DNA of 64,000 bases, taken from sequence record LC788705.1. One strand, given 5' to 3'. Below, one piece after another: positions 37,649-53,989 of this stretch (the first letter of the stretch is position 1; each line of letters opens with the position of its first letter). Origin of the DNA: Escherichia coli phage NG_A1. The notes under the pieces are model-generated. The model made no database searches. It was given only the letters and a program-made list of their open reading frames with translations, and was not told where the DNA came from. Made by a program: the position numbers and the translations under genes.

Positions 37649-37669
37649 TAAATAAATTAAAAAATTTTC

Positions 37670-37698
37670 TTGCTTAAAGCCCTCTAATTTAGTATAAT
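37670..37698 (+). promoter_or_regulatory. Early-type promoter; spacer complementary to the downstream RBS
   Basis: TTGCTTaaagccctctaatttagTATAAT; aaagccctc (37676-84) is rc of gagggcttt (37717-25). Confidence 0.6.
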
Positions 37699-37725
37699 AT
37701 TCGTATTGAAAGTGAGGAGGGCTTT

Positions 37726-38004
37726 ATGAGAATTTATAACTCAAATTCATTAGGATTTAAACCGTTGAGAAAACGTGCACAATCACCTCGTCAAATAAGA
37801 AAGGCTAATATTGGTGAGCCAGAAACACGTCTTCCACCTCCTCCGGAACAGCGTTTAGTTTATCTGGATGAAGAATTAGCTGAACGCGAAAGAAAAGCTC
37901 AAGAAGAGATTGAGCGTAAGAAAATGTGTACTGCTCCAGCGTATAATAAAGGAGCATATCAATATGTTTCCGATGCAGAACAAGCCAAGATGGTTGGTAG
38001 ATAA
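37726..38004 (+). CDS. Hypothetical protein
   Basis: 92-aa ORF. Confidence 0.4.
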   Translation: MRIYNSNSLGFKPLRKRAQSPRQIRKANIGEPETRLPPPPEQRLVYLDEELAERERKAQEEIERKKMCTAPAYNKGAYQYVSDAEQAKMVGR

Positions 38005-41596: not shown

Positions 41597-41601
41597 AAAG
41601 A

Positions 41602-42051: not shown

Positions 42052-42059
42052 AAATTTAT

Positions 42060-42088
42060 TTGCTTAAATACTTAAACTTCTGTATAAT
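42060..42088 (+). promoter_or_regulatory. Early-type promoter
   Basis: TTGCTTaaatacttaaacttctgTATAAT. Confidence 0.65.
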
Positions 42089-42119
42089 ACTTTCATAAAT
42101 TAATGAGGGGAAGCGAAAT

Positions 42120-42290
42120 ATGAAATCAGTTGTAATTATTGGTGTTAATACTCGCGGTATTCGTACTACGAAAACTGTTAAAACTTCCAACGTTGCTGAG
42201 ATCACTACGAACCCTAAAAAGTTTGATTTCGCCAAAGTCTCAGCAGTTATGACAGAACAATCTTTTAACCAAGCGTTAGGAATGAAATAA
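42120..42290 (+). CDS. Small hypothetical protein (56 aa)
   Basis: ATG 42120 after GAGGGGAAG; below track cut-off. Confidence 0.3.
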   Translation: MKSVVIIGVNTRGIRTTKTVKTSNVAEITTNPKKFDFAKVSAVMTEQSFNQALGMK

Positions 42291-42733
42291 TGGAAGAGGA
42301 TATTTTAGATGTTTTGCGTAGAGCTTTGCAGGATTCTAAGTTTAATGGTTCTGATAAAGAAGTCGCTAAAAGCTATCAGACCATAATCGGGGATCTTCAG
42401 CGTATTAATAAAGATTTCATCACTTCTGAACAATTTGTGTCTTATCTCAAAGCTCAACTAAAAAGCATTAACCAGATGAAAGCTAAACTTCATGGTCAAG
42501 ATCTTGATAGTTATAGCTTGCAGTCCGCTCAGTATGAATACATTCTAAATAAGTGGTTGCAGGAGTATCTGCCCTCTCAGTTATCTGATACTGAGATTCG
42601 TAAATACTTTGCAGAATTAGTTAAGCTAAACCCTGGAATTACAAAAGGTATGCTGATGAAAGCGATCAAGGAAGAATTTCCTGGGCGTTATGATGGTGGT
42701 ACTGCTGCTCAGATTGCTGGCGAATTTAATTAA
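42290..42733 (+). CDS. GatB/YqeY-domain protein
   Basis: 147 aa; LQEYLPSQLSDTEI...GMLMKAIKEEFPGRYDGGTAAQIAGEF matches YqeY/GatB C-terminal domain pattern. Confidence 0.65.
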   Translation: MEEDILDVLRRALQDSKFNGSDKEVAKSYQTIIGDLQRINKDFITSEQFVSYLKAQLKSINQMKAKLHGQDLDSYSLQSAQYEYILNKWLQEYLPSQLSDTEIRKYFAELVKLNPGITKGMLMKAIKEEFPGRYDGGTAAQIAGEFN

Positions 42734-42741
42734 AAATTTAT

Positions 42742-42770
42742 TTGCTAAATGCTTATAAATTCTGTATAAT
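42742..42770 (+). promoter_or_regulatory. Early-type promoter at the head of the tRNA region
   Basis: TTGCTAaatgcttataaattctgTATAAT. Confidence 0.65.
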
Positions 42771-43007
42771 ATATTCATAAATTAGAGAACAGCGAGCCGA
42801 TTACGCTGAACTTGTCTTAATGTAAGATGCGTCGAGCACTAAGATTCGTTGAATAGAGTCGGTGGGTTAGTTGTAAAACTAGTACACAGGGGGCGGCAAT
42901 CCCGGTTAGTGGCTAGAACGTGTAAAATGAGGCGTCTGAAACCTCTCCCCTAAACTCTTCTCTAATTTATAAATAGTGGGGTGTGGAAATCACTTATGTA
43001 GTAACAC

Positions 43008-43080
43008 TGCCGTCCTAGTATAATTGGTATTATCAAGCCGTAACTGGTGGAAGATGTAGGTTCGAATCCTACGGTCGGTA
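43008..43080 (+). ncRNA. tRNA-like element (canonical T-arm, imperfect acceptor pairing)
   Basis: T-arm gtagg-ttcgaat-cctac at 43056-43072, D-loop-like aattggta; no 7-bp acceptor helix found. Confidence 0.25.
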
Positions 43081-43589
43081 AGAACTGGATAACTGATGCT
43101 TTTAATGTAAAAGCTTCCGAGGTTAGTTGCGCACTGCCTAAACCACGCGGTAGTTGGTTCCAGACTAACCAACCAGTCTGCTGAATAGTTTTATTACGAT
43201 TTAACTATGTCCAGGCTAAAGAAGAACTTTAGAAGGTATTCTAGGATAGTGAAGTTCTTTCTCCATATCGGAGTAGTTTTTCAAGCTATCCACAAAGTGG
43301 GAAATGCTGACATGAGAGATGTCACTAATGGTGCACAATAGCACAGGTAATTCGCGATAACTCCTGTTGAGTAGCAGCAAAAGGTGGGAAGTCATGACCC
43401 CAAGCCTAACCGAGTCCTCAATATACCGCAGGACATAACTACTAAGTCACCCTGACTTAAACTGGAAAATAATAGACGTTACTGTATTTTGTCTTGAAAT
43501 ACTTAATGAGTGAGACTTATGACTCTCCCGGTATCGTCTGTATTTTTAAGAGTTTTTACGAGAGTTCTTAAAAATACTTAAACGGGGTG

Positions 43590-43657
43590 TAGTCTAAGGG
43601 AGAGGCAGGAGTCTTCTAAATTCCTTTATGCAGGTTCGAATCCCTTGTCACGCACCA
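43590..43657 (+). ncRNA. tRNA-like element ending in CCA
   Basis: ggttcgaatcc T-loop at 43633-43643 and ...cgcaCCA 3' end; stems imperfect. Confidence 0.25.
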
Positions 43658-43689
43658 AATTTGATGGTCAGAGTAAATTAAACCTACTA

Positions 43690-43733
43690 TCTCGGTTGAG
43701 CTGTTTTAATGGGTTCGAATCCCAGCGAGGCGT
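43690..43733 (+). ncRNA. tRNA-like minihelix (T-arm plus short acceptor-like stem)
   Basis: ctcg...tggg-ttcgaat-ccca-g-cgag. Confidence 0.2.
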
Positions 43734-43782
43734 AACTGCCTGGTGTGATAGAGGCATCATTCCACTAACATTGGAAAAACTA

Positions 43783-44013
43783 ATGAAACGAAAATTAAAA
43801 AAGTCTTATATAATTAAGATAAATAAGCTACGAAGTAGGGCAAAAGGATGGCCACTTCGAATATTAATTGCGGATAACCATACTAGATACCATGCGGAAC
43901 AACGTCATTACAAACAGTGGGAGTCATACTGCCGCTCAAAAGCAGGTCGTTTAGATGGATCTTATGAGTTTCTATTTGGTAAAAAGCCTACTAGAGTAGC
44001 TTTAGGTAATTAA
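43783..44013 (+). CDS. Small basic hypothetical protein in the tRNA region
   Basis: ORF from ATG 43783 (track ORF 43645..44013 begins inside tRNA-like sequence). Confidence 0.3.
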   Translation: MKRKLKKSYIIKINKLRSRAKGWPLRILIADNHTRYHAEQRHYKQWESYCRSKAGRLDGSYEFLFGKKPTRVALGN

Positions 44014-44018
44014 TACTT

Positions 44019-44109
44019 GGAAGAGCAAATCGAATTGGCGACGAAAACCGCTTGGAAAGTGGCTGACTGGTAAAACGGCTTGAGAGTTCAAATCTCTCCT
44101 CTTCCGCCA
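44019..44109 (+). tRNA. Type II tRNA, probably tRNA-Ser (anticodon GGA tentative)
   Basis: 7-bp acceptor ggaagag/ctcttcc, discriminator G, CCA; T-arm gagag-ttcaaat-ctctc; 91 nt with long variable arm. Confidence 0.5.
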
Positions 44110-44121
44110 AACAATTTATAT

Positions 44122-44216
44122 GGTAGGTCAATCCAACGGCTGGCGCTGGACTCCGACTTGAAATCGGTTGATCGTAGTGATACGGTGTAAGGGTTCGATC
44201 CCCTTACCTACCTCCA
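44122..44216 (+). tRNA. tRNA-Ser (UGA), type II
   Basis: Acceptor ggtaggt/acctacc, CCA; anticodon loop cTTGAaa on stem ccga/tcgg; T-arm aaggg-ttcgatc-ccctt. Confidence 0.55.
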
Positions 44217-44221
44217 AATCT

Positions 44222-44352
44222 TGGAATATGCCGGAATTGGTAGACGGGACTGCCGAATAGGTTTACTAGGAACATCCACTCCTAGAAATATACCTTAAAA
44301 GCGGTTGAGTTAAATGGTCTAACTCATGAAGGTTCAAGCCCTTCTATTCCTT
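44222..44352 (+). ncRNA. Atypical tRNA-like element, about 131 nt
   Basis: Leu/Tyr-type D-arm ccggaattggtagacgg, T-arm gaagg-ttcaagc-ccttc, acceptor-like tggaata/tattcct, but about 80 nt between D- and T-arms. Confidence 0.3.
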
Positions 44353-44581
44353 GATACATCAATGGCTCAAAGTGTAACGGTGCTATTTGATGCTCTTGGA
44401 AAGACTTTCCCGACATGCGTTCGGGGGTAAGCTTCTGAGGCTAGAATAGAAGAGTTTCTGAGAGCCGCCACAATTGAAAATTCGTACTCGTCTTGAGCTG
44501 CATGCAATAGGAGATAACTTGATTAGTATTCTAGAACATGCTAATTGAGGATGGTTTCGCTAACCCTGCGAGTTTTCAATT

Positions 44582-44659
44582 GTGGCTATATCATAATTGG
44601 TTAATGATCCTGATTGTGAATCAGGCCTATGTGGATTCGAATTCCACTAGCCACCCCCA
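44582..44659 (+). tRNA. tRNA-His (GUG)
   Basis: Acceptor gtggcta/tagccac, D-stem tcat/atga, anticodon loop ttGTGaa on stem cctga/tcagg, T-arm gtgga-ttcgaat-tccac, 3' CCCCA. Confidence 0.65.
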
Positions 44660-44684
44660 AATTAACTTAAATAGGAAATAAAAT

Positions 44685-44879
44685 ATGGCTGATTTCTGCA
44701 AACAATGCTCCATTGATATGTGGGGCAGAGATACTGGTGATCTTTCTGGGCTGATTACAGAAGCCGAAGTCAAAGAAGGTTATGGTGCAGTTGTGGTTTG
44801 TGAAGGATGCGGAGTCATTCGAGTAGATCATGAGGGTAAGCGCCTTGAAGAACCTGAGCCAGTTACCCTATTTCCCTAA
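44685..44879 (+). CDS. Small Cys-rich (zinc-ribbon-like) protein
   Basis: 64 aa; CKQC...CEGCG. Confidence 0.4.
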   Translation: MADFCKQCSIDMWGRDTGDLSGLITEAEVKEGYGAVVVCEGCGVIRVDHEGKRLEEPEPVTLFP

Positions 44880-44892
44880 AGTAAAGAATTAT

Positions 44893-44968
44893 TGGGATGT
44901 AGATCAATTGGCAGATCGTCGGCCTCTGACTCCGAAGGTTCCACGTTCGATCCGTGGCATCCCAGCCA
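44893..44968 (+). tRNA. tRNA-Gln (CUG)
   Basis: Acceptor tgggatg/catccca (U1:A72), D-stem gatc/gatc, anticodon loop ctCTGac, T-arm ccacg-ttcgatc-cgtgg, G+CCA. Confidence 0.7.
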
Positions 44969-44974
44969 AATACT

Positions 44975-45050
44975 TGGAGAGTAGTGTAACGGTTAGCACA
45001 ACGGCCTTTGACTCCGTTAATGGTAGGTTCGATTCCTCCTTCTCCAGCCA
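44975..45050 (+). tRNA. tRNA-Gln (UUG)
   Basis: Acceptor tggagag/ttctcca (U1:A72), anticodon loop ctTTGac, T-loop ttcgatt, G+CCA. Confidence 0.7.
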
Positions 45051-45057
45051 AATTAAT

Positions 45058-45132
45058 GCGTGATTAGTTCAGTGGCTAGAATAACTGGCTTCCAACCAGT
45101 AGACACGAGTTCGACTCTCGTATCCCGCACCA
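45058..45132 (+). tRNA. tRNA-Gly (UCC)
   Basis: Acceptor gcgtgat/atcccgc (one mismatch), anticodon stem actgg/ccagt with loop ctTCCaa, T-arm acgag-ttcgact-ctcgt, A+CCA. Confidence 0.7.
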
Positions 45133-45146
45133 AATAAGGAAACACT

Positions 45147-45398
45147 ATGCACGTTTTTGAGTTTCGTAATAAAAGTACTGATAAGCGAGTTATCATTATT
45201 GGAGAAACATATCGAGCATATGAACAAACTGATGGCTCTGTTATCTTGAATGATGAGAAAGGAGGTTTTAGCTTTTATCCAGAAGAACCTTATGAAGAGT
45301 TTCGAAAACAATTTAACCTAGACTGGAGAAAGCATTTAAACACTGTTGCTTCATCTGTAGTATTGCCAACTACCAGTACTGTACTCTCTAATGGCTGA
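45147..45398 (+). CDS. Hypothetical protein
   Basis: 83-aa ORF after AAGGAAA. Confidence 0.4.
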   Translation: MHVFEFRNKSTDKRVIIIGETYRAYEQTDGSVILNDEKGGFSFYPEEPYEEFRKQFNLDWRKHLNTVASSVVLPTTSTVLSNG

Positions 45399-45555
45399 CA
45401 ACCTAAAAGTAAAGATTGATAAACAAAAGAAACGTGTAGAAGTAGAGATTGGTGAAGAACGTGTTGCCTTTACTTTTGAATTTCTACAGCAAATGGCAAT
45501 GGCAGTTATGACTGATAAGTCTCCTGTTATTGAAAAAGAAATCCCGTTGAAATAA
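45391..45555 (+). CDS. Small hypothetical protein (54 aa)
   Basis: ATG 45391 overlapping previous ORF end; hairpin 45541-45565 follows. Confidence 0.3.
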   Translation: MADNLKVKIDKQKKRVEVEIGEERVAFTFEFLQQMAMAVMTDKSPVIEKEIPLK

Positions 45556-45565
45556 CGGGATCATC

Positions 45566-45640
45566 GCTCCTAAAGCATTGCTGGCGATGCAGTTGCCTTG
45601 TAAGCATCTGAACCGGGTTCGATTCCTGGTGGGAGCACCA
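45566..45640 (+). tRNA. tRNA-Thr (UGU)
   Basis: Acceptor gctccta/tgggagc, D-stem gcat/atgc, anticodon loop ctTGTaa, T-arm ccggg-ttcgatt-cctgg, A+CCA. Confidence 0.65.
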
Positions 45641-45655
45641 AATTTAAAAATTCAT

Positions 45656-45684
45656 TTGCCTTCTCTCTTATTTATTGTTATAAT
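45656..45684 (+). promoter_or_regulatory. Early-type promoter
   Basis: TTGCCTtctctcttatttattgtTATAAT. Confidence 0.6.
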
Positions 45685-45714
45685 ATTTATATAAATTAAT
45701 GAGAGGGAAACCAA

Positions 45715-46005
45715 ATGAAACGTTATCTTTCTATTGTATTCCAAACTGGTGGTCAAAGATATACCTATGAATTTCCATCTTCTTGGAAAATCAAAGAAGG
45801 TGATCAAGTAGTAGTGTTAACACCGCGTGAAGGGTATAAAGTAGTAATGGTTAAACAAGTATTCCCAAAAGATCATGAACCAGCTAAAGGCATTCGCTAT
45901 AAGATGATTCATGGTGTGGTCCGTCAAGTACCACGAACTGAGGTAGAAGTAGATAAGACTGGAGAAACTAAATTCCATTATACTTCTTACTTAGATAGTG
46001 TGTGA
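45715..46005 (+). CDS. Hypothetical protein
   Basis: 96-aa ORF with GAGAGGG RBS. Confidence 0.5.
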   Translation: MKRYLSIVFQTGGQRYTYEFPSSWKIKEGDQVVVLTPREGYKVVMVKQVFPKDHEPAKGIRYKMIHGVVRQVPRTEVEVDKTGETKFHYTSYLDSV

Positions 46006-46020
46006 TGTAAATATTCTAAT

Positions 46021-46097
46021 ACTTCGGTAGCTTAGCGATCTAAAGCACCCGGCTGATAACCGAGAGATCGGGGGTTTAAATCCCTCCCGGAGTACCA
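46021..46097 (+). tRNA. tRNA-Ile (GAU)
   Basis: Acceptor acttcgg/ccggagt, D-stem gctt/aagc, anticodon loop ctGATaa, T-arm ggggg-tttaaat-ccctc, A+CCA. Confidence 0.6.
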
Positions 46098-46193
46098 AAT
46101 TTAGGAATTAAGACTATGCGTCCAGGAAAGTTTAAAAAAGCTAATTGGTCTAAAGAGTATAAAGAATACTTACTTAGTCTAGTAAAACATAAC

Positions 46194-46269
46194 AGTTAGT
46201 TGGCAGAGTGGTTATGCACCTCCTTCATACGGAGCGACTACAGTGGTTCAAATCCACTACTAACTACCA
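46194..46269 (+). tRNA. tRNA-Met (CAU); could be initiator or a lysidine-modified Ile isoacceptor
   Basis: Exact acceptor agttagt/actaact, anticodon loop ttCATac, T-arm agtgg-ttcaaat-ccact, A+CCA. Confidence 0.6.
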
Positions 46270-46306
46270 TTAAAAGAGCTAGAGATAGCTAAATTTAGGA
46301 GCAGCT

Positions 46307-46501
46307 ATGTTAACAATTAAAATAATGTCAGCCAAGAATGGTGAACATATCCATACAGGCAAAAGTGTAAGCTTTAATCCTAGAAATAAAAGATTGGCTA
46401 TAGTTGGAGTAGACCAAGCCATCTTTTTAAAAGAAGATGAAGTAGCATATGTCATGAACCAAACTGGTAAGACAGTTTCCGTATACTATGGAAAAGTATA
46501 A
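46307..46501 (+). CDS. Hypothetical protein
   Basis: 64-aa ORF. Confidence 0.4.
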   Translation: MLTIKIMSAKNGEHIHTGKSVSFNPRNKRLAIVGVDQAIFLKEDEVAYVMNQTGKTVSVYYGKV

Positions 46502-46543
46502 AGAATAAATAGCTGAGCCAAATTCTAACATCGGGGAGATCTA

Positions 46544-46912
46544 ATGAAAGCATATCAAAGTCTTAAATCTGGCGTAATTAACCTTGTTCATGAAAATCAG
46601 ATTATTCAGCTATACTCCGACAACGGTGAACTTAAACAGAAAGTTCTAGTTGAAGATCTAGAAGGTATCACACCACAATTCGATCCCGAAGCCTTCCGTG
46701 AAGTCAAAGTGGAAGTCGCCCCTCAAATCGAAGGTGGTCAGCACCTAAATGTCAATGTGTTAAGCCGTGATCAGCTTTTGGATGTGCAGAAACATCCTGA
46801 AAAATATCCTCAGTTGACCATCCGTGTCTCTGGCTACGCTGTTCGATTTAACGCACTGACTCGTGAACAACAGAACGACGTTATTAGTCGTACATTTACT
46901 CAGGCGATGTAA
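46544..46912 (+). CDS. grcA: GrcA/YfiD-like autonomous glycyl-radical cofactor protein
   Basis: 122 aa; [11 protein letters not shown]...[31 protein letters not shown] matches the glycyl-radical domain of GrcA/PFL. Confidence 0.8.
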
Positions 46913-46993
46913 TGGGGTTTGGATACGATTTCTCCCAGCTACGCAAGGTAGTCGAGCAAACTCCGTTTATCTCCCAAGTTTTAGGAGAAATGG

Positions 46994-47308
46994 GTGGATC
47001 GAGCATTAAGACGCCATCACCGGCAACGTGTGAAGAACAACCGCAAGAAGTATTGGACAGTCTTTCCACATGAAGAAAGCCCTAAGCGGTTAGGTATTAT
47101 CACTACTACTCCTTGCATCTGTTCTTGCTGGATGTGTGGGAACCCTCGCAAATATTATAAGAATAGTAAAGCAGGTATGAAAACCTCGGAGATTAGGAAA
47201 ATGGAAGCAATGATTACGGATATTTCAAATGATGAATTTGATGGCTTTGTAGGATTCGGAGAAGGAATTAGCTCAGGCTGTTTCGAAGATGTACGCCCCG
47301 ATTTGTAA
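46994..47308 (+). CDS. Hypothetical Cys-containing protein
   Basis: 104-aa ORF, start uncertain. Confidence 0.35.
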   Translation: MDRALRRHHRQRVKNNRKKYWTVFPHEESPKRLGIITTTPCICSCWMCGNPRKYYKNSKAGMKTSEIRKMEAMITDISNDEFDGFVGFGEGISSGCFEDVRPDL

Positions 47309-47317
47309 TTAATAACA

Positions 47318-47355
47318 AACCCCAGCTATTGAATAGGTAGTCTGGGGTTTTTCTG
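47318..47355 (+). terminator. Rho-independent terminator
   Basis: ccccag...ctgggg hairpin then TTTTTC. Confidence 0.7.
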
Positions 47356-47429
47356 TATACAGGTAGATAATTTATGTATAATAAAATTCATCCACATTAG
47401 GTTAATTTAAAAAACTTAATGGAGGTAAT

Positions 47430-47777
47430 ATGAGCCGTACTTATCGTAAACAATCTGGTGATCAGTGGTGGAAGTCTAAAGAACAATTCTCTCAAGAATA
47501 TTCTTTCATCAAAGAAAATGGATACTGGATTCGTGTTATTTATGCCAAATCTTGGGACGACATCAAAAAAGAAATGAAGGAAGCAACCATTCGTAATGAG
47601 AAAAAGGATGGTTATAACTGGAATTCTATTAGCAAGAATGTTAAGTGGCATTCTAATAAAATGGTTCGTCAAGGAAATCGTCAAGAACTCCACCGCGTGA
47701 TGAAAGATCCAGAAAATTACGACTATAATCGCGATCATGACATGCGTAAGCGTGGATTATGGTGGTGCTATGACTAA
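47430..47777 (+). CDS. Hypothetical Trp-rich protein
   Basis: 115-aa ORF after GGAGG. Confidence 0.5.
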   Translation: MSRTYRKQSGDQWWKSKEQFSQEYSFIKENGYWIRVIYAKSWDDIKKEMKEATIRNEKKDGYNWNSISKNVKWHSNKMVRQGNRQELHRVMKDPENYDYNRDHDMRKRGLWWCYD

Positions 47778-47794
47778 TTTCTGAAATAATTCAT

Positions 47795-47823
47795 TTGCTA
47801 AACCTCTCTTTTCTTGTTATAAT
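47795..47823 (+). promoter_or_regulatory. Early-type promoter; spacer complementary to the downstream RBS
   Basis: TTGCTAaacctctcttttcttgtTATAAT; aaacctctct (47800-09) is rc of agagaggttt (47842-51). Confidence 0.65.
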
Positions 47824-47853
47824 ATTTATATAAATTGATGAGAGAGGTTTGAA

Positions 47854-48135
47854 ATGAAAACTCGTCTAGACTGTGCTATTCACGTTGTCGAGCATAGTGT
47901 TGTTGGAACCTGTATGTCTTACCATGAAGCAGGTCGTTTAATTAAAGAACGTGTGGCAGATGTGTGTGGATTGAAGATTACTGCTGAGGAATCTGATGAT
48001 CTTTTAGGTCAAGCACTGGAGAAAACCGAAATGTTCCTCTGCGATTCTTGTTCTTGGTGGTGTGAAGCTCACGAACGTTCTTTCAATGATTATGATGTAT
48101 GTCGTGATTGTAGTGGGGAGGATGAAGATGAATAA
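47854..48135 (+). CDS. Small Cys-rich acidic protein
   Basis: 93 aa; C-terminus CRDCSGEDEDE. Confidence 0.5.
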   Translation: MKTRLDCAIHVVEHSVVGTCMSYHEAGRLIKERVADVCGLKITAEESDDLLGQALEKTEMFLCDSCSWWCEAHERSFNDYDVCRDCSGEDEDE

Positions 48136-48427
48136 GTTTATTATTGCACTGATGATCTCCGCAGTTAGTTTCGGTTCTCTGGCATCTACCAAAGTTTCTA
48201 TGAAAAATGGTAATGTTAAAGTCCAACAGAACGGCATTATTACCGAGTATGGTAAAGTTCGTGATGTTAAGGAACGTAATGGTAAAGTAGAAATATATAC
48301 TAATAAAAACTTCACTACTCCAGCCGTTACTATTAGCAAACGTGGTGAGATAACTACTCAACGTACTAATAGCTCTAGTTCTTTTACTTGTCGTTATGAT
48401 TGCGACTTTGAAGGTGAAGATGAATAA
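48128..48427 (+). CDS. Small secreted protein (signal peptide)
   Basis: MNKFIIALMISAVSFGSLAS signal peptide; C-terminus CRYDCDFEGEDE; start after GGGGAGGA. Confidence 0.5.
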   Translation: MNKFIIALMISAVSFGSLASTKVSMKNGNVKVQQNGIITEYGKVRDVKERNGKVEIYTNKNFTTPAVTISKRGEITTQRTNSSSSFTCRYDCDFEGEDE

Positions 48428-48839
48428 TTTAGATCCTAGAATTAATTTTGCTATTACAGAAATCCAAGATCAAATTGATGAGGACTTCACTGTTTGGTCA
48501 AGGTCTGGCAATGGAGAGTATTGCCAGCTTTATAGCATGAAAATGGGTATCTCAATTGAGCTTAATATCAACTCTGAAGGTAGAGTAGAAGCCCAGCCCA
48601 TGTTCAGTGTTCCAGGCTTCTCTGGATTTGTTGCAGGTATAAAATTGTGTCTACCAAATAACCATCTTCATCGAGTTATTTGTCAGCTAGTGACTATTAA
48701 GCATTTCTTGCCAGAAGGTAATATTAATGACTACTACCACGAAGTTGTAGCAGCTCATATGATGAAAGAACGCAAACGTCGGAGAGAAGAACGTGAAAAG
48801 ACTAAACATCAACAGCACAGTGCAGATTCCAGCAACTAA
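48420..48839 (+). CDS. Hypothetical protein
   Basis: Start ATG overlaps upstream stop (GAAGATGAATAA). Confidence 0.45.
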   Translation: MNNLDPRINFAITEIQDQIDEDFTVWSRSGNGEYCQLYSMKMGISIELNINSEGRVEAQPMFSVPGFSGFVAGIKLCLPNNHLHRVICQLVTIKHFLPEGNINDYYHEVVAAHMMKERKRRREEREKTKHQQHSADSSN

Positions 48840-49089
48840 GGATGTTTTAATATTCCTACGTAGTGAGAATACCCAGTTTTGGCATGACTATATTCAGGAA
48901 AATAAAAATAATCCAGACATAGTTGCTTTTGCCAAGAAACGTATTGGTGAATATAAAGATCCAGAGATTAAAGATGGGATGATTACCATGCAGTTATGGA
49001 TAGCTATGAAAACCTTTGGACCCACTATGAGTCTAGGATTTACTCCGCTGTTTACTAATATTCTAATTAATGAAAAGGATCTGAAATGA
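48793..49089 (+). CDS. Hypothetical protein
   Basis: 98-aa ORF, start uncertain. Confidence 0.35.
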   Translation: MKRLNINSTVQIPATKDVLIFLRSENTQFWHDYIQENKNNPDIVAFAKKRIGEYKDPEIKDGMITMQLWIAMKTFGPTMSLGFTPLFTNILINEKDLK

Positions 49090-49337
49090 TTATCTCTCCA
49101 TTTGCTCTTTGGTTCATCATTGGATCTGTAGTTGCTATTTACAGCTTGGTTGATGATCTGTATATTTCTAAGAATAAAGATGTAATATTATACGTTATAC
49201 ATAAAACTCGACCGTTAGATCTGCCACCTCTTGATGATAAAACATTACTCAGATGTGCTAGATCTGTGATATTTATTGTGGATATTCTTCTAGGCCCAAC
49301 ATCTGTGTTTTTCTTTATAGAAAAACTCGTAATATGA
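49086..49337 (+). CDS. Small membrane protein
   Basis: 83 aa with N-terminal hydrophobic helix. Confidence 0.4.
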   Translation: MIISPFALWFIIGSVVAIYSLVDDLYISKNKDVILYVIHKTRPLDLPPLDDKTLLRCARSVIFIVDILLGPTSVFFFIEKLVI

Positions 49338-49443
49338 AAAAATTTAAAGCTGAAATGCAGAATACTTAAAGAACTCGCGTAGGACCGAGTTGCGTCACCT
49401 GCAACTGTTACGGATAAGGGAGTCGTGCCCCTTAGTGCGGTAA

Positions 49444-49824
49444 GTGGTGAGGTGGCTGCTAGCCCTAACTGGAGATAATATGACTATATTACTAATTCTT
49501 GTTACAACTTGGTTTTTAATCGGTGCTGGATATGCGATAGCTATTATTAGACATTTGGACGAACATTCTGCTGAATGGTTTGTTAAGTATCTACGTATTG
49601 ATGATCAAGAACAGAAGTTTAAAGATGAAAAGCAGAAAAAAGCAGTAAATAATATGACAGCCAAAGAATGCTTGTTCTACATGCGTATTGTAGGGTTCTT
49701 TGGACTATTAGTTGCTGGCCCAATTGGTTCTACCATTGCTCCATATAAAGAAACAGTTGCTGACATCAAATTGTGGAGAAATGCAGGGGTACTACGCAAA
49801 GCTAGAGAAACTAATATTACATAA
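49444..49824 (+). CDS. Small membrane protein
   Basis: 126 aa, two hydrophobic segments. Confidence 0.4.
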   Translation: MVRWLLALTGDNMTILLILVTTWFLIGAGYAIAIIRHLDEHSAEWFVKYLRIDDQEQKFKDEKQKKAVNNMTAKECLFYMRIVGFFGLLVAGPIGSTIAPYKETVADIKLWRNAGVLRKARETNIT

Positions 49825-49867
49825 GATTGACACTAAGTCAGCTTACTAGCAAAAGCAAATAATGACA

Positions 49868-49905
49868 AAGCCCAGCCTGCACTTTTGCGACTGGGCTATT
49901 TTTAT
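49868..49905 (+). terminator. Rho-independent terminator
   Basis: agcccag...ctgggct hairpin then ATTTTTAT. Confidence 0.65.
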
Positions 49906-49918
49906 AATAAAATTTTAG

Positions 49919-49947
49919 TTGCTTAGATGCCCAAACTTTTGTATAAT
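49919..49947 (+). promoter_or_regulatory. Early-type promoter
   Basis: TTGCTTagatgcccaaacttttgTATAAT. Confidence 0.65.
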
Positions 49948-49978
49948 ATGTTTATAGATTGAGGCAAGAGGATTAAAT

Positions 49979-50677
49979 ATGAGGATTATTTCTAAGTTCG
50001 CCGATGTGTATGATTTGCAGAACAGTTTGTTCGACCCAGATCGTGTGTGGGAACGTAAAACCGAGGAGTTGCTGGTTAAAGTAACCGATGATGCAGAAAA
50101 GAACATTGTGCATACTCGCCAGGTATTTCGTGATGGTTCGCTATCTTTCCGTGGTGATTTCGAATACTTTGTAAACCCACTATTTGTTGCGGGTGAAGTT
50201 TACTGGTTACACGAGCTGTACTGCTGGCATCCAACATTTAGCTTCAAAACGTTCGACCTCGACACTATGTTCGATAAAATGGAAGAGATGGGATTGCATG
50301 CTCGCTCTTACTTAATGGATAAGAGTCGTGGAGATGTTCGTGAAACAATGCGTGATCTGCTCGCTGAAGCAAAACCTAAAGCAGAACGTATCTTATCCGA
50401 ACTGCGTGTACCGATTGCATATGTGAAAGGTATTAAAAAGAACGATAACGATGATGTTCGTAACTTCGTAATTCAGACTAACATTCGTTTCCATCAGTCC
50501 GGTATTCCGTGGCAGGAAATTGAAAGTAACTTATACCGTTTACACCAAGTTCTCGAACAGTATATCTTCGGTGTACTAGGAACTGGTGAGCCTGATATGA
50601 TTAAAGTATCAGATAAAGACAGGTTAGCAGCGCATGGATTTGATACAAAAACTTCTTTCAGGAATATGGCACGGTAA
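49979..50677 (+). CDS. Hypothetical protein
   Basis: 232-aa ORF. Confidence 0.5.
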   Translation: MRIISKFADVYDLQNSLFDPDRVWERKTEELLVKVTDDAEKNIVHTRQVFRDGSLSFRGDFEYFVNPLFVAGEVYWLHELYCWHPTFSFKTFDLDTMFDKMEEMGLHARSYLMDKSRGDVRETMRDLLAEAKPKAERILSELRVPIAYVKGIKKNDNDDVRNFVIQTNIRFHQSGIPWQEIESNLYRLHQVLEQYIFGVLGTGEPDMIKVSDKDRLAAHGFDTKTSFRNMAR

Positions 50678-51083
50678 GTGGTATATCCTGGGAGCAGGTC
50701 TAGCGATAGGCATCGGGTTCGGTGCTTATCACTTAGTAGATAAAGTGGAGACTTTAGCAGGAGATCTTGCGGTAGCTACTAAAAAGATTTCTTCTCTAGA
50801 GACTTCCCTCAATAAGGTGAAAGGTGAAAGCGAACTTCGTGAGACTAGAATGAATCAGTATTTCACAATGAATAATATTTCGCAAGCAGATCTAGACAAA
50901 AAGATTAAGCAGTTAGACAAAGCTCTTAGTCGCCAAGATATTATAGCTGCAAAGCCTGGATTGGTAACATTAATTGCTAAAAAGCAGAGTAAAGAGTTCG
51001 AGGAAAGATTAGCATGTTTAACTGGAAACTTGGAATACTGCTCGCAGCCGCAATCACAATCACAGGCTGTGCAGAAGAAATAA
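50634..51083 (+). CDS. Putative i-spanin (Rz-like)
   Basis: N-terminal TM helix WYILGAGLAIGIGFGAY, coiled-coil periplasmic part, overlapped by lipoprotein gene. Confidence 0.5.
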   Translation: MDLIQKLLSGIWHGKWYILGAGLAIGIGFGAYHLVDKVETLAGDLAVATKKISSLETSLNKVKGESELRETRMNQYFTMNNISQADLDKKIKQLDKALSRQDIIAAKPGLVTLIAKKQSKEFEERLACLTGNLEYCSQPQSQSQAVQKK

Positions 51084-51367
51084 AACCAGAGCCATCTCAT
51101 GAGTTAAAGCAAGCTCATGTAGACTGGCCTAAAGGACTTCAACCTTGTAGCTTTGACTTTAAGTTTGAAAAGAAAGTAGCTACAAATGGAGAAGATGGCG
51201 TAGTAGTTGTTGTACCATATAAAGATTGGAATATGTTGGCAAAATGCCGTGAGGCAGAATATTCATATATTTCACGACTGACAAGTATGGTTTGCTTCTA
51301 TCGCCAAGATTTACAAGAAAAACGTTGCTTAGTTTACTATCCACCCATTACAAATAGGAAAGATTAA
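51014..51367 (+). CDS. Putative o-spanin (Rz1-like lipoprotein)
   Basis: Lipoprotein signal LAAAITITGC; starts inside the 3' end of the i-spanin gene. Confidence 0.5.
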   Translation: MFNWKLGILLAAAITITGCAEEIKPEPSHELKQAHVDWPKGLQPCSFDFKFEKKVATNGEDGVVVVVPYKDWNMLAKCREAEYSYISRLTSMVCFYRQDLQEKRCLVYYPPITNRKD

Positions 51368-52119
51368 TGTCAGTATTAGTCGGTTTACATGGTGAAGCTG
51401 GTTCGGGAAAAGATACCGTTGCAAAATTAATTATCGATTGGTGTAATGACACGTATCCAACGTGTTTACCCCGTCGTTATAGTTTTGCTAAGCCCGTTTA
51501 TGAACTTGCATCCGTAATCCTCGGTGTAACTCCGGAGTTTCTAGGAGAGCGCAGGGGAAAAGAGGTTGACCAATGGTTTACGGTCACACAATCTCAATTG
51601 GAGCGAGCCAGAGATGTGTGGTTTAAGTATGGTATCGATAAGTTTGAAGACTTCTCGTACGTTTGGCCTATTTTTGAGGAAAAATATCTTAATCCTCAAC
51701 AACTTATCTCAGAGAGTAAAAAAGACGGACTTTATAGTTTATTTATTTCTCCGAGAAAAATGTTACAGCTCGTAGGGACAGAGCTAGGAAGGCAGCTGGT
51801 GCATGAACGCATTTGGCTCATAATTCTGGAGCAATCCATCGCTAAAGACGACCCAGATGTCGCCGTAATAACAGATGTTAGATTCCCCAATGAAGGAGAG
51901 TTACTCAGAGAAACAAACCATTTAGATATGGATTCTTTGATAGTAAATGTAGTACCCGCTGAGCAGAAGTTCACTATTAAATCAGATCATCCATCTGAAA
52001 GTGGTATTCCTGCAAAATATATTACTCACGAATTAGTTAATAAATTCGATGGTATCAATAACCTTAAACTAGAAGTTTATAACTTCTGTGACTTAGAGCT
52101 AGAACCACTAGTTGGATAA
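51367..52119 (+). CDS. Deoxynucleoside monophosphate kinase-like P-loop kinase
   Basis: 250 aa; Walker A GLHGEAGSGKDT. Confidence 0.65.
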   Translation: MSVLVGLHGEAGSGKDTVAKLIIDWCNDTYPTCLPRRYSFAKPVYELASVILGVTPEFLGERRGKEVDQWFTVTQSQLERARDVWFKYGIDKFEDFSYVWPIFEEKYLNPQQLISESKKDGLYSLFISPRKMLQLVGTELGRQLVHERIWLIILEQSIAKDDPDVAVITDVRFPNEGELLRETNHLDMDSLIVNVVPAEQKFTIKSDHPSESGIPAKYITHELVNKFDGINNLKLEVYNFCDLELEPLVG

Positions 52120-52131
52120 TCAAGGATCACT

Positions 52132-52731
52132 ATGACTAATAAAAAAGAAGAAAAGACTAACCTGTTTCACTCCATTCGCCAATCTAATGAGTATACCTTT
52201 TTCTTTGATGAAGAATTAGGCCCGCCGGATGAATACCGTGATTTATCAATGGTACTTATGCAAGCAAATGAGGACGACGAAATTAATCTGATGATTAATG
52301 GCCCTGGTGGTTATGTTGATACTGCTGCACAGTTATCTAACTTAATTGCTAATTGCCGTGGAACAGTTATAGGACATCTGGTTGGTCCTAGTGCTTCTGC
52401 TTACTGCACAATTTTCCTATCCTGTCATGGGTGGGTAGTACATCCACATGCTACGCTAATGGGACACACGTTCTCTGGCGGATTCTGTGAGAAGGGTCAA
52501 GAAATCAAGAAAGCCTATGAATCTTACAACAAGTTCGTAGAAGATATGATGCTAGATGTCTACTATCCGTTTTTCTCAATAGACGAAATCGATGAGATGG
52601 TAAAAGACAACAAAAATATCTATCTAGATAGCAAAGAAATCCATAAGCGTATTGAAATCTTGGCAAAATATCGATCTGAGCAGTATAATAAAGCCCAGTT
52701 ACCTCAATCAGAGGAGCATAAAGAAGAGTAA
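52132..52731 (+). CDS. ClpP-like serine peptidase
   Basis: 199 aa; INGPGGYV...GPSASAYC...MGHTF resembles the ClpP Ser/His region. Confidence 0.55.
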   Translation: MTNKKEEKTNLFHSIRQSNEYTFFFDEELGPPDEYRDLSMVLMQANEDDEINLMINGPGGYVDTAAQLSNLIANCRGTVIGHLVGPSASAYCTIFLSCHGWVVHPHATLMGHTFSGGFCEKGQEIKKAYESYNKFVEDMMLDVYYPFFSIDEIDEMVKDNKNIYLDSKEIHKRIEILAKYRSEQYNKAQLPQSEEHKEE

Positions 52732-52740
52732 GTAGTTTTA

Positions 52741-52773
52741 AGCCAGGGTTTAACGACCCTGGCTTTTCTTTTA
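52741..52773 (+). terminator. Rho-independent terminator
   Basis: agccaggg...ccctggct hairpin then TTTTCTTTT. Confidence 0.7.
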
Positions 52774-52887
52774 TCTAAAATTCTTCTTGACAACGACAAA
52801 ATTTTGTGCTCCAAAGAAAATCTTTAAAAACACATTGTAATTTTCCTCCAAAATTAGTATAATGGTACTGGTTAGAGGAGGTTACAA

Positions 52888-53544
52888 TTGGAAAAGTTCT
52901 TACAATTATTAACGGTACTGCTCCAAGAAGCGAAAGATCCAGCATCGCTTCTTAAACGTCTGCTAACTATCTTAGTTGCTGTCATTATTTTCTTATTTGT
53001 TAGTAATACTAGCGAGGTGATGTCATTCTTAAAGACTTTCTCCACGTCTGCGGTTCTACAGGATGTTCAAACTCAAAGGATAGATAACTTTCCTAATGTA
53101 GCTAGAGAAAAGAGCATGGTACTCTTTTCTCAAACGGGTGCGGATGCTGTTTTTGTAGTCAAGTATAAACCCGATGCCATTAATGATTATTCTAACATTA
53201 TTGCATGGGAAAGCAATGCGCAATTAGATAGGGCTGACTTGGCCGATAAAGCAGTAAATAAAACGTCTGAGCTATACAGACGTCACTTAGAGGGCTTTAA
53301 CTACGCATCGGATTTAAGTGTAAGAGTAAATAAATATACGGGGTTAAATATACCTGCGTTTAAGAACGTTACTTTTAATTACATATACACTTGTCCATAT
53401 TTCAATCTAAACAATATCTATGCTGGATATATTGGTATTGCTTGGAAAGATAATCCTGTAGATGCAGCCGATTCTGAGAAATTTAAGGAATATTTAACAA
53501 AGCTCTGTTCCCCACAACAGAGATCTTTAGGTAGATCAATATGA
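52888..53544 (+). CDS. Putative holin (218 aa, TTG start)
   Basis: AGGAGG RBS, N-terminal TM segment, immediately upstream of and coupled to endolysin. Confidence 0.5.
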   Translation: MEKFLQLLTVLLQEAKDPASLLKRLLTILVAVIIFLFVSNTSEVMSFLKTFSTSAVLQDVQTQRIDNFPNVAREKSMVLFSQTGADAVFVVKYKPDAINDYSNIIAWESNAQLDRADLADKAVNKTSELYRRHLEGFNYASDLSVRVNKYTGLNIPAFKNVTFNYIYTCPYFNLNNIYAGYIGIAWKDNPVDAADSEKFKEYLTKLCSPQQRSLGRSI

Positions 53545-53954
53545 GTTTTAAATTTGGTAAAAATAGCGAAAAACAATTAGCTACCGTTAAGCCAGAGCTA
53601 CAAAAAGTAGCTCGTAGAGCTTTAGAATTATCTCCATATGATTTCACGATCGTACAGGGTATTCGTACAGTAGCACAAAGTGCCCAGAATATTGCTAATG
53701 GTACTTCATTTTTAAAAGATCCTAGTAAAAGCAAGCATATTACTGGGGATGCCCTTGATTTTGCTCCATACATTAATGGCAAAATTGATTGGAATGATTT
53801 AGAAGCATTTTGGGCAGTTAAAAAGGCTTTTGAACAAGCGGGTAAAGAACTAGGCATTAAACTTCGTTTTGGTGCTGATTGGAATGCTTCGGGAGATTAT
53901 CACGACGAAATAAAACGTGGTACCTATGATGGCGGTCATGTCGAACTAGTTTAA
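53541..53954 (+). CDS. Endolysin (putative zinc peptidase type, T5 Lys-like)
   Basis: 137 aa; size and position match the T5 endolysin as recalled; H/D-containing segments (HITGDALDF, GGHVE). Confidence 0.65.
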   Translation: MSFKFGKNSEKQLATVKPELQKVARRALELSPYDFTIVQGIRTVAQSAQNIANGTSFLKDPSKSKHITGDALDFAPYINGKIDWNDLEAFWAVKKAFEQAGKELGIKLRFGADWNASGDYHDEIKRGTYDGGHVELV

Positions 53955-53963
53955 TTAATAACT

Positions 53964-53989
53964 GAGGCGGGAATATTCCCGCCTTTTTA
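53964..53989 (+). terminator. Rho-independent terminator
   Basis: ggcggga-atat-tcccgcc then TTTTT. Confidence 0.75.

What the first reader, a model, noticed from the sequence alone, without database searches (positions are those of the whole stretch)
47795..47856. Promoter spacers perfectly complementary to the downstream ribosome-binding site (two cases)
At promoter 47795 the spacer aaacctctct (47800-09) is the exact reverse complement of agagaggttt (47842-51), which contains the Shine-Dalgarno. At promoter 37670, aaagccctc (37676-84) is the exact reverse complement of gagggcttt (37717-25). Transcripts from the proximal promoter lack the upstream arm, while read-through transcripts from upstream could fold a hairpin that hides the RBS. 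That would tie translation to the proximal promoter.
Basis: inference. Interest (0 to 1): 0.45.

Follow-up and report, generated by a model that had tools for sequence, protein, structure and literature searches.

The report
Promoter-embedded anti-RBS hairpins in T5-like phage

Summary
AAAGCCCTC (37676-84) matches GAGGGCTTT (37717-25).

The window is a T5-like phage (Tequintavirus). Both sites are annotated early promoters in T5, upstream of T5.053 and T5.090. At site A a 19-bp helix hides both the Shine-Dalgarno sequence and the AUG (-23.9 kcal/mol, z = -6.0).

Two more cases were missed: promoter P11 (45656) and the holin promoter (52835).

The pairing is specific to each promoter's own gene. 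In a promoter-swap test, 4 of 19 promoters in the window are reciprocal best partners of their own RBS (permutation p<5e-5). The same holds in Pantoea phage AAS21 and Serratia phage Slocum, more weakly in Klebsiella phage Sugarland. Pooled over the four genomes, 27% of own-gene pairings versus 4.8% of swapped pairings have at least 8 perfect complementary bases (p = 1e-8).

Orthologous promoters keep the pairing with different sequences, including changes on both arms.

Best explanation: read-through RNA silences its own RBS, as in T4 genes e, soc, 49 and I-TevI and in IS10. The translational effect is inferred, not shown. I rate this a new member of a known kind, of moderate interest.

The parts
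47790..47796 (+). Site A, outer 5' arm TTCATTT. It overlaps the first two bases of the -35 hexamer and pairs with AAATGAA, which contains the start codon.
   Evidence: MFE structure
47795..47800 (+). Site A -35 hexamer TTGCTA. This is the T5-type early promoter that T5 annotates upstream of T5.053.
47799..47810 (+). Site A, inner 5' arm TAAACCTCTCTT (perfect core 47800-47809), in the promoter spacer. It lies upstream of the start site, so it is present only in read-through RNA.
47818..47823 (+). Site A -10 hexamer TATAAT. The predicted start site is about 47830; that position is inferred from the spacing usual in T5 promoters.
47840..47851 (+). Site A, inner 3' arm GAGAGAGGTTTG (perfect core 47841-47850), containing the Shine-Dalgarno sequence.
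47852..47858 (+). Site A, outer 3' arm AAATGAA, including the start codon at 47854-47856.
47854..48135 (+). 93-aa ORF driven by site A. It is the T5.053 homolog (phrog_2855, function unknown).
47430..47777 (+). Upstream gene (T5.054 homolog). Its transcripts come from the P10a-like promoter (-10 at 47377-82) behind the terminator near 47318-47350, and would read through site A. No terminator was detected between its stop codon and site A.
37667..37671 (+). Site B, outer 5' arm TTCTT. It pairs with GAGAA at 37728-32.
37670..37675 (+). Site B -35 hexamer TTGCTT. T5 annotates this promoter upstream of T5.090, downstream of rnh. The -10 hexamer is at 37693-98.
37675..37685 (+). Site B, inner 5' arm TAAAGCCCTCT, in the promoter spacer.
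37716..37732 (+). Site B 3' arms: GGAGGGCTTTA (Shine-Dalgarno sequence up to the A of the ATG) and GAGAA. The start codon is at 37726-28; the ORF is 37726-38004 (92 aa, phrog_4593).
45651..45672 (+). The 5' arms are TTCATTTG and TTCTCTCTTATT; the -35 hexamer TTGCCT is at 45656-61.
45698..45719 (+). P11 3' arms AATGAGAGGGAA and CAAATGAA, covering the Shine-Dalgarno sequence and the ATG at 45715-17. The ORF is 45715-46005 (96 aa, T5.058 homolog). The read-through hairpin has MFE -25.2, z = -6.35.
52831..52848 (+). Fourth case: the holin promoter. The 5' arm runs from the -35 hexamer TTGTAA (52835-40) to the anti-SD stretch CCTC(C).
52875..52890 (+). Holin 3' arm GAGGAGGTTACAATTG, covering the Shine-Dalgarno sequence and the TTG start at 52888-90. 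The ORF is 52888-53544, a T-type holin (PF11031, E = 2.8e-112). A terminator lies upstream at 52740-52765.

Best explanation
These are promoter-embedded anti-RBS elements. The stretch from the -35 hexamer into the first half of the spacer of a strong sigma-70-type T5 early promoter is complementary to the Shine-Dalgarno sequence and start codon of the gene 20-25 nt downstream of the start site.

RNA polymerase that initiates at this promoter makes an mRNA beginning between the two arms. That mRNA lacks the 5' arm, so its RBS is open. Polymerase arriving from an upstream promoter transcribes both arms. The RNA then folds into a 17-28-bp interrupted hairpin, with the -10 region and the start-site region in the loop, and this hairpin buries the SD and AUG. 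Translation of the gene, and probably of the genes coupled to it, is thereby tied to its own promoter and insulated from read-through.

Shown: the complementarity, its specificity for each promoter's own gene, its position relative to the promoter elements, its predicted stability, and its conservation with co-varying arms across genera.

Inferred: the exact start sites, the existence of read-through RNA, and the translational outcome.
For: (1) Exact complementarity, extended helices and stability.
- Site A: -23.9 kcal/mol, z = -6.0.
- Site B: -22.0, z = -4.3.
- P11: -25.2, z = -6.35.
- Holin promoter: -21.0, z = -3.8.
- The transcript started at site A itself shows no significant structure (z = -0.5).
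- Sources.

(2) Predicted unpaired probability of the site A Shine-Dalgarno sequence falls from 0.39 in the promoter-started transcript to 0.02 in read-through RNA, whatever the length of upstream context.

(3) Specificity for each promoter's own gene.
- Window: 4 of 19 promoters are reciprocal best partners of their own RBS (p<5e-5).
- AAS21: 6 of 17 (p<5e-5).
- Slocum: 7 of 16 (p<5e-5).
- Sugarland: p = 0.004 on the mean only.

(4) Pooled over 66 promoters.
- At least 8 perfect complementary nt: 18 of 66 own-gene pairings versus 50 of 1036 swapped pairings (Fisher p = 1.3e-8).
- Duplexes of -16 kcal/mol or better: 18 of 66, versus 2 of 66 with the upstream segment shifted by 50 nt and 0 of 66 against coding sequence.

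(5) In all 18 strong cases the 5' arm lies at -41..-12 relative to the start site. In 17 of 18 the SD and/or start codon is paired.

(6) Orthologous promoters keep the pairing with changed sequences.
- The site A gene family shows five different arm pairs.
- Site B in Slocum differs from the window by two changes on both sides plus one lost pair.

(7) The property is stable within close relatives: 26 of 26 genomes at site A, 27 of 27 at site B, 28 of 29 at P11. Promoters without the pairing stay without it.

(8) No terminator was detected between the upstream genes and sites A, B or P11.

(9) The same logic is experimentally established for T4 genes e, soc, 49 and I-TevI (review PMC3014915). 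One of the four genes here is a lysis gene, the holin, which parallels T4 lysozyme.
Against: - There are no transcript or translation data for T5-like phages, and I found no T5 paper describing this.
- The upstream and the gene's own promoters are of the same sigma-70 early class. The benefit of discriminating between them is therefore less obvious than the early-versus-late switch in T4.
- Strong-pairing promoters are no more likely than others to lack an upstream terminator (3 of 18 versus 10 of 48). The holin promoter even has one 71 nt upstream.
- In AAS21 the site B ortholog pairs its spacer with +1..+10 of the transcript and covers the SD only partly.
- Single-base variants among close relatives are about half wobble-compatible and half disruptive, which is the neutral expectation.
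- Several lineages have lost the pairing: Sugarland at site A, Slocum at P11 and at the holin promoter.
- Loops of about 30 nt slow folding, so ribosomes might sometimes bind first.
Confidence: 0.6

Rival explanations
1. The hairpin is a real, selected RNA structure in read-through transcripts, but its main role is RNA processing, stability or insulation. It might be an RNase III or RNase E site that cuts polycistronic RNA at each promoter, a 3' protective hairpin for the upstream message, or a way to leave read-through RNA untranslated so that Rho terminates it. Under this view, hiding the RBS is a side effect, or even a step toward activation after cleavage.
For: - The whole promoter is a near-palindrome of the 5'UTR. 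At P11 the arms are 44 nt long, 73% complementary and 3 nt apart, and the predicted hairpin has about 28 pairs. Site A has arms of 22 nt at 77%. These lengths approach those of RNase III substrates.
- P11 directly follows a tRNA that must be processed.
- The AAS21 site B ortholog keeps a hairpin that only partly covers the SD.
Against: - In 17 of 18 strong cases the 3' arm covers the SD and/or start codon.
- The stretch between SD and AUG is sometimes the exact complement of the promoter's own -35 hexamer (5 of 66 versus 1.7% in swapped pairings, p = 0.006). This points at the initiation region itself.
- Most helices are 8-12 bp with bulges and loops of about 30 nt, which makes them poor RNase III substrates.
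- I know of no RNase III processing reported for T5 (own knowledge).
Confidence: 0.15
2. The inverted repeats are a non-adaptive by-product. AT-rich, near-symmetric promoter regions are prone to template switching during replication, which 'corrects' near-palindromes into better ones. The complementarity would arise and persist without any function.
For: - One metagenomic relative (L014/L066) has turned site A into a perfect palindrome of about 51 bp, in which the whole spacer is the reverse complement of the whole 5'UTR. This is the signature of such an event.
- The excess of G.U over A.C mismatches is also expected if only the upstream arm is free to drift, because the SD is constrained (reasoning).
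Against: - The property stays fixed at particular orthologous promoters across four genera while the arm sequences change.
- Neighbouring promoters of the same architecture never acquire it.
- Unselected 10-bp repeats would decay over the divergence seen here (35-70% protein identity).
- The arms sit exactly on either side of the start site, and the 3' arm on the RBS.
Confidence: 0.1
3. The two arms form a DNA-level operator: a palindromic binding site for a phage or host dimeric regulator that straddles the -10 region and represses or activates the promoter.
For: The inverted repeats flank the -10 hexamer and the start site, which is a classical operator position.
Against: - The arm sequences differ completely between promoters: CCTCTCT, GCCCTC, CTAACTTTCTG, CTCCTTCAA, TTGCAAATCTTCTT. 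Each tracks its own RBS, so no common recognition motif exists.
- Arm spacing varies.
- Several helices contain G.U pairs, which would be mismatches between the DNA half-sites (AAS21 39575, Slocum 22954).
Confidence: 0.03
4. It is chance: CT-rich spacers happen to match purine-rich ribosome-binding sites in an AT-rich genome.
For: - Shine-Dalgarno regions here are low-complexity GA repeats, so any CT run in a spacer will match many of them.
- Some swapped pairings reach 9-10 complementary nt (14 of 1036).
Against: - Permutation and Fisher tests.
- Replication in three other genera.
- Conservation with co-varying arms.
- Shuffle z-scores between -3.8 and -6.35.
Confidence: 0.02

Closest known systems
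T4 genes e (lysozyme), soc, 49 and I-TevI: RBS-sequestering hairpins with a late promoter inside
   Same: The SD and/or AUG lie in the 3' arm of a hairpin. A promoter sits in or next to the 5' arm, so its transcripts start inside the structure and are translated, while longer transcripts from upstream promoters fold and are silent (about 100-fold for gene e). Related phages conserve the arrangement (review PMC3014915, section 29). One of the genes here is also a lysis gene, the holin.
   Different: - In T4 the switch separates temporal classes: early/middle transcripts are silent and late gp55-dependent transcripts are active. Here both the upstream and the gene's own promoters are sigma-70-type T5 early promoters.
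- In T4 it concerns a handful of genes. Here about a quarter of early promoters in four Demerecviridae genera show it.
- Here the 5' arm is built from the -35 hexamer and the spacer of the promoter itself.
- No experimental proof exists for T5.
IS10/Tn10 protection from external promoters (Davis, Simons & Kleckner 1985, Cell 43:379), and the analogous IS50 read-through control
   Same: Transcripts entering from outside include a segment complementary to the transposase RBS and fold back on it. Transcripts from the element's own promoter start downstream of that segment and are translatable. The purpose is insulation from read-through within one promoter class, which is the closest functional analogy. 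This rests on my own knowledge; the reference is listed in PMC13181058.
   Different: IS10 is a mobile element guarding a single gene against unpredictable host transcription. Here a lytic phage applies the device repeatedly inside its own densely promoter-packed early region.
Leader hairpins that occlude the RBS in general (for example lambda N leader/RNase III, thermosensors, riboswitch expression platforms)
   Same: An anti-SD stretch pairs with the SD to block 30S binding.
   Different: Those switches respond to a ligand, temperature, a protein or a cleavage event acting on a single transcript. Here the switch is which promoter made the RNA. Rfam found no known family at these sites, only tRNAs.

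Membership tests
Promoter-in-hairpin, read-through-specific translational silencing (T4 e/soc/49/I-TevI type; IS10 type) | The SD and/or start codon lie in the 3' arm of a stable hairpin. | tested here: met
   Predicted MFE structures with z between -3.8 and -6.35 at four window promoters. The SD is fully paired at all four, and 2-3 of the 3 start-codon bases are paired. These are predictions, not structure probing.
Promoter-in-hairpin, read-through-specific translational silencing (T4 e/soc/49/I-TevI type; IS10 type) | A promoter whose start site lies between the two arms, so that its own transcript lacks the 5' arm. | tested here: met
   Consensus -35/-10 hexamers with 17-nt spacing. The same sites are annotated as promoters in T5. 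The 5' arms lie at -41..-12 and the 3' arms at +10 or later. The exact start site is inferred from T5 promoter spacing, but the conclusion tolerates an error of +/-10 nt.
Promoter-in-hairpin, read-through-specific translational silencing (T4 e/soc/49/I-TevI type; IS10 type) | Transcripts from an upstream promoter actually cross the element. | tested here: inconclusive
   No terminator-like site was found between the upstream gene (or tRNA) and sites A, B and P11, and an upstream promoter exists (P10a for site A). The holin promoter has a terminator 71 nt upstream. No RNA data are available.
Promoter-in-hairpin, read-through-specific translational silencing (T4 e/soc/49/I-TevI type; IS10 type) | Long transcripts are translationally silent and short ones active. 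| not testable with these tools
   Thermodynamic prediction only: the unpaired probability of the site A SD is 0.39 in the short transcript and 0.02 in the long one.
Promoter-in-hairpin, read-through-specific translational silencing (T4 e/soc/49/I-TevI type; IS10 type) | The pairing is conserved among relatives despite sequence change. | tested here: met
   26 of 26, 27 of 27 and 28 of 29 close relatives keep it. Epseptimavirus, AAS21 and Slocum carry different arm pairs at orthologous promoters. The formal pair count on a MAFFT alignment was unusable because the pairing register shifts.
Intrinsic (rho-independent) terminator | A GC-rich stem with a 3-8 nt loop, followed directly by a U tract. 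| tested here: not met
   The loops are about 30 nt. The 3' arms are followed by GAAAUGAAA (site A) and AUGAGAAUUU (site B), not a U run. The terminator scan does not call them.
Known cis-regulatory RNA families (Rfam) | A match to a curated covariance model at its gathering score. | tested here: not met
   Only tRNAs were found in 36000-56000.
Palindromic protein operator | A shared half-site motif across the regulated promoters. | tested here: not met
   The arms differ at every promoter and follow that promoter's own RBS.

The most novel reading that the evidence does not exclude
T5-like phages (Demerecviridae) may use promoter-embedded anti-RBS sequences as a genome-wide insulation system. 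In roughly one early promoter in four, including the one for the holin, the -35/spacer region doubles as a silencer of the downstream RBS in read-through RNA. Protein output of those genes would then be set by their own promoter alone, despite long terminator-poor arrays of very strong tandem promoters. A further possibility is that the untranslated read-through RNA is handed to Rho or to RNases. To my knowledge this would be an undescribed layer of T5 gene regulation, and a ready-made part for synthetic operon design.
Probability: 0.5. Interest if true: 0.6.

Novelty: new member of a known kind. Interest (0 to 1): 0.5.

Why it matters
T5 early promoters are textbook examples of very strong sigma-70 promoters and are workhorses of expression vectors. 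Their spacers are usually treated as neutral filler. If a quarter of them encode an anti-RBS, three things follow.

- The long tandem-promoter arrays of T5-like phages are not simple additive transcription units. Translation of selected genes, including the holin, would be gated by which promoter made the RNA.
- The T4 and IS10 principle would be shown to be a recurrent, independently evolved solution in another major phage family.
- Annotators and engineers would gain a simple sequence rule to predict which genes are insulated from read-through, and a compact natural part that couples translation to one promoter.

Tried and rejected
- **Sense versus antisense duplex energies, to prove RNA-level selection through G.U pairs.** The sense strand is favoured in 17 of 18 reciprocal-best cases. 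However, the background is also skewed (-8.75 versus -6.82 kcal/mol for swapped pairings). In addition, SD constraint together with AT-biased drift of the free arm predicts the same excess. The test is not decisive.
- **Enrichment of strong-pairing promoters among those lacking an upstream terminator.** No difference was found: 3 of 18 versus 10 of 48. My simple terminator detector also misses some sites.
- **Formal covariation count on a MAFFT alignment of site B orthologs.** MAFFT aligns by position while the helix register shifts by 1 nt in Slocum. The count of structure pairs would therefore have scored real pairs as broken, and I compared the arms by hand instead.
- **Anchoring on the conserved loop of site B to fish diverse relatives from IMG/VR and metagenomes.** Only close relatives were recovered, with single-base variants in the 5' arm and no new changes on both arms.
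- **Single-base variants among close relatives.** About half are wobble-compatible and half disruptive, which is uninformative.
- **Minus-strand reading.** The reverse complement of the 5' arm looks like an SD followed by ATG, but the ORFs are only 3-6 codons (read directly from the sequence). This is a mirror image of the repeat, not a gene.
- **Terminator, Rfam family and protein operator.** All rejected.
- **Literature searches for a T5 description.** They found nothing. The library lacks most older subscription papers, so prior mention cannot be excluded.

Full report
**What the window is.** A 2-kb stretch around the finding matches more than 450 T5-like phage genomes (Salmonella and Escherichia Tequintavirus) at 95-97% identity. 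The window holds some 30 stereotyped T5 early promoters: an A-rich block, TTGCTW, 17 nt, TATAAT, then ATAAATT around +1 and a strong GAGAGG-type Shine-Dalgarno sequence. In the T5 reference genome the finding's two promoters are annotated features.
- Site A is the promoter upstream of T5.053.
- Site B is the promoter between rnh (T5.091) and T5.090.
- The next promoter downstream of site B is the classical P-H207.

**Check of the observation.** Both exact complementarities exist. The only error is a one-base offset: AGAGAGGTTT lies at 47841-47850.
- At site A, RNA spanning 47785-47865 folds into a 7-bp helix (UUCAUUU/AAAUGAA, containing the AUG) stacked on a 12-bp helix (UAAACCUCUCUU/GAGAGAGGUUUG, containing the SD), with a 2-nt bulge between them. 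The energy is -23.9 kcal/mol, z = -6.0, and 0 of 200 shuffles fold as well.
- Site B gives 11 + 5 bp, -22.0 kcal/mol, z = -4.3.
- The transcript expected from site A's own promoter (47830 onward) has no significant structure (z = -0.5).
- The predicted unpaired probability of the site A SD falls from 0.39 to 0.02 once upstream sequence is included, and stays there for 60, 150 or 300 nt of context.

**Is it more than chance?** I paired every promoter segment (-50..-1 relative to the predicted start site) with every RBS segment (start codon -20..+6) and compared own-gene with swapped pairings.
- Their duplex energies are -17.6 to -23.4 kcal/mol, against a swapped-pairing mean of -8.8 (sd 3.2 to 3.3 in the two runs).
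- The permutation p on the mean is 0.0001-0.0005, and p for four reciprocal-best pairs is <5e-5.
- 45656 is T5 promoter P11, directly after tRNA-Thr. Its read-through RNA folds into a hairpin of about 28 pairs (-25.2, z = -6.35).
- 52835 drives a T-type holin (PF11031, E = 2.8e-112). There the -35 hexamer TTGTAA pairs with TTACAA just before the TTG start, and CCTC pairs with the SD (-21.0, z = -3.8).
- A fifth candidate, 41220, has its arm further upstream than -50.

**Independent replication.** The same unsupervised pipeline was run on the early regions of three other Demerecviridae.
- Pantoea phage AAS21: 6 of 17 promoters are reciprocal best (p<5e-5; p on the mean 0.0003).
- Serratia phage Slocum: 7 of 16 (p<5e-5).
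- Klebsiella phage Sugarland: p on the mean 0.004, four strong cases, only one reciprocal best.

Pooled over 66 promoters:
- 27% of own-gene pairings versus 4.8% of swapped pairings have at least 8 perfect complementary bases (Fisher p = 1.3e-8).
- Duplexes of -16 kcal/mol or better occur in 18 of 66 own-gene pairings.
- They occur in 2 of 66 when the promoter segment is shifted 50 nt upstream, and in 0 of 66 against the first coding bases.

Local base composition therefore does not explain the signal. In all 18 strong cases the 5' arm lies between -41 and -12, that is, upstream of any plausible start site. In 17 of 18 the SD and/or start codon is paired. In five promoters the short stretch between SD and AUG is the exact complement of the promoter's own -35 hexamer, for example TTGCAA...TTTGCAAATG (p = 0.006).

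**Evolution.** Within 24-29 Tequintavirus/Epseptimavirus genomes the strong pairing is kept at site A (26 of 26), site B (27 of 27) and P11 (28 of 29). Promoters without it stay without it. Between genera the arms change together.

| Promoter (by downstream gene) | Lineage | 5' arm / 3' arm |
|---|---|---|
| Site A family | window, T5 | AAACCTCTCT / AGAGAGGTTT |
| Site A family | Epseptimavirus | AAAACCCTCTC / GAGAGGGCTTT |
| Site A family | L026 | AAAG..CCTCT / AGAGG.CTTT |
| Site A family | AAS21 (homology confirmed) | AAAAGCCTCCG / CGGAGGCTTTT |
| Site A family | Slocum, promoter after the T5.054 homolog | AAACTCCTTCAA / TTGAAGGAGTTT |
| Site B | window | AAAGCCCTC / GAGGGCTTT |
| Site B | Slocum | AAACCTCC / GGAGGTTT |

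- The Slocum site B promoter is otherwise alignable with the window's. It differs by two substitutions on both arms plus one lost pair.
- In AAS21 the site B ortholog pairs CTAACTTTCTG with CAGAAAGTTAG at +1..+10.
- Some helices contain G.U pairs, for example Slocum TTGCAAATCTTCTT/AAGAGGATTTGCAA.
- Single-base variants among close relatives are uninformative.
- Some lineages have lost the feature: Sugarland at site A, Slocum at P11 and at the holin promoter.

**Mechanism.** The arrangement is the one established for T4 genes e, soc, 49 and I-TevI. There long early transcripts hide the RBS in a hairpin, and a promoter located in the 5' arm produces shorter, translatable transcripts (review PMC3014915). 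It also matches IS10, which protects itself against external promoters (Davis, Simons & Kleckner 1985; reference seen, details from my own knowledge).

For site A the source of read-through is clear on paper. A terminator lies near 47318-47350, followed by a P10a-like extended -10 promoter (47377-82) and the T5.054 homolog (47430-47777). The promoter follows directly, with no terminator detected in between. The stop codon of the upstream gene lies 13 nt before the outermost arm and 22 nt before the inner SD-pairing helix, so terminating ribosomes should not melt the inner helix (inference).

I therefore consider read-through-specific silencing of the RBS the most likely function (confidence about 0.6). 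What remains inferred is the start sites, the read-through itself and the translational effect. The benefit of discriminating between two promoters of the same class is a hypothesis: insulation of dosage or timing, notably for the holin.

**Rivals.**
- A selected RNA hairpin used for processing, stability or Rho insulation cannot be excluded. The long near-palindromes at P11 and site A and the AAS21 site B case speak for it. The consistent targeting of SD and AUG speaks against it.
- A purely mutational origin is suggested by one relative (L014/L066), in which site A has become a perfect palindrome of about 51 bp. It does not explain promoter-specific persistence with co-varying arms across genera.
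- A protein operator is contradicted by the lack of any shared arm motif.
- A terminator is contradicted by the 30-nt loops and missing U tracts.
- Chance is contradicted by the statistics above.
- Rfam has nothing at these sites but tRNAs.

**Novelty and score.** The mechanism is known. Its presence in T5-like phages, at sigma-70 early promoters, built from the -35/spacer itself and recurring in about a quarter of promoters in four genera, appears undescribed. Searches found nothing, but the library is incomplete for older literature. I rate it a new member of a known kind, interest 0.5. It is not very surprising to a specialist, but it is a clean, testable and general regulatory rule for a model phage family and its widely used promoters.

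Noticed in passing
L014 about 1430-1500 and the same contig in L066 (IMGVR_UViG_3300045988_054024), orthologous to window 47800-47850: In this metagenomic T5-like contig the promoter spacer reads AAACCTCTCTCATCAATTTATAA. That is the exact reverse complement of the whole 5'UTR (TTATAAATTGATGAGAGAGGTTT), giving a perfect palindrome of about 51 bp centred between the -10 hexamer and the start site (duplex -31.8 kcal/mol). It looks like a near-palindrome 'corrected' by template switching. The upstream gene also differs from the window's.
   Followed up: partly
window 41105-41318 (promoter at 41220): A fifth candidate. In read-through RNA the SD (GAGGC) pairs with GCCTC about 100 nt upstream (near 41170-41175, as read from the fold). 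The A-rich block upstream of the -35 hexamer pairs with +1..+20 of the transcript. The arm lies beyond the -50 limit of my test. T5 has a different promoter and gene at this position, with TTCCTCT upstream of the A-tract facing AGAGGAA.
   Followed up: partly
window 7100-7300, minus strand (promoter at 7176), and plus strand at 7120: A T5-type promoter whose spacer TTCTCTCGAA is near-complementary to TTCGAGGAGAA in its transcript (hairpin -14.2 kcal/mol). No canonical start codon follows the SD within 15 nt. A divergent promoter-like site overlaps on the other strand, and a second promoter sits at 7276.
   Followed up: no
L067, ortholog of the window 39893 promoter: Tandem duplication of the -10/+1 module (TCTGTATAATATATTCATAAAT, repeated twice) in one relative. 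This shows that these promoter modules are recombination-prone.
   Followed up: no
window 47318-47382: The promoter of the gene upstream of site A (T5 P10a) has an extended -10 (TGTATAAT) and no TTG -35 hexamer. It sits immediately after, and in T5 is annotated as overlapping, a rho-independent terminator.
   Followed up: partly
window 36627-37175: A 182-aa ORF between the 36251 gene and rnh. In T5, rnh is instead preceded by a promoter and thy. By eye its sequence (DHKNR...N...N) looks like an HNH-type homing endonuclease; I did not check this with a family search.
   Followed up: no
L092 10380-10470, minus strand (Slocum), and L091 promoter at 7366, minus strand (Sugarland): The holin promoter keeps an anti-SD stretch (CTTCCTCC) and an upstream terminator at the same 71-nt distance in Sugarland. 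In Slocum the spacer instead holds a small internal hairpin (CTGTGAGATACAG) and has no complement to the SD.
   Followed up: partly
window 47776-47812, minus strand; also 52831-52850, minus strand: Read on the minus strand, the 5' arms look like an SD followed 8-9 nt later by ATG, but the ORFs are only 3-6 codons. This is a mirror-image artefact of the inverted repeat that could mislead gene callers.
   Followed up: yes
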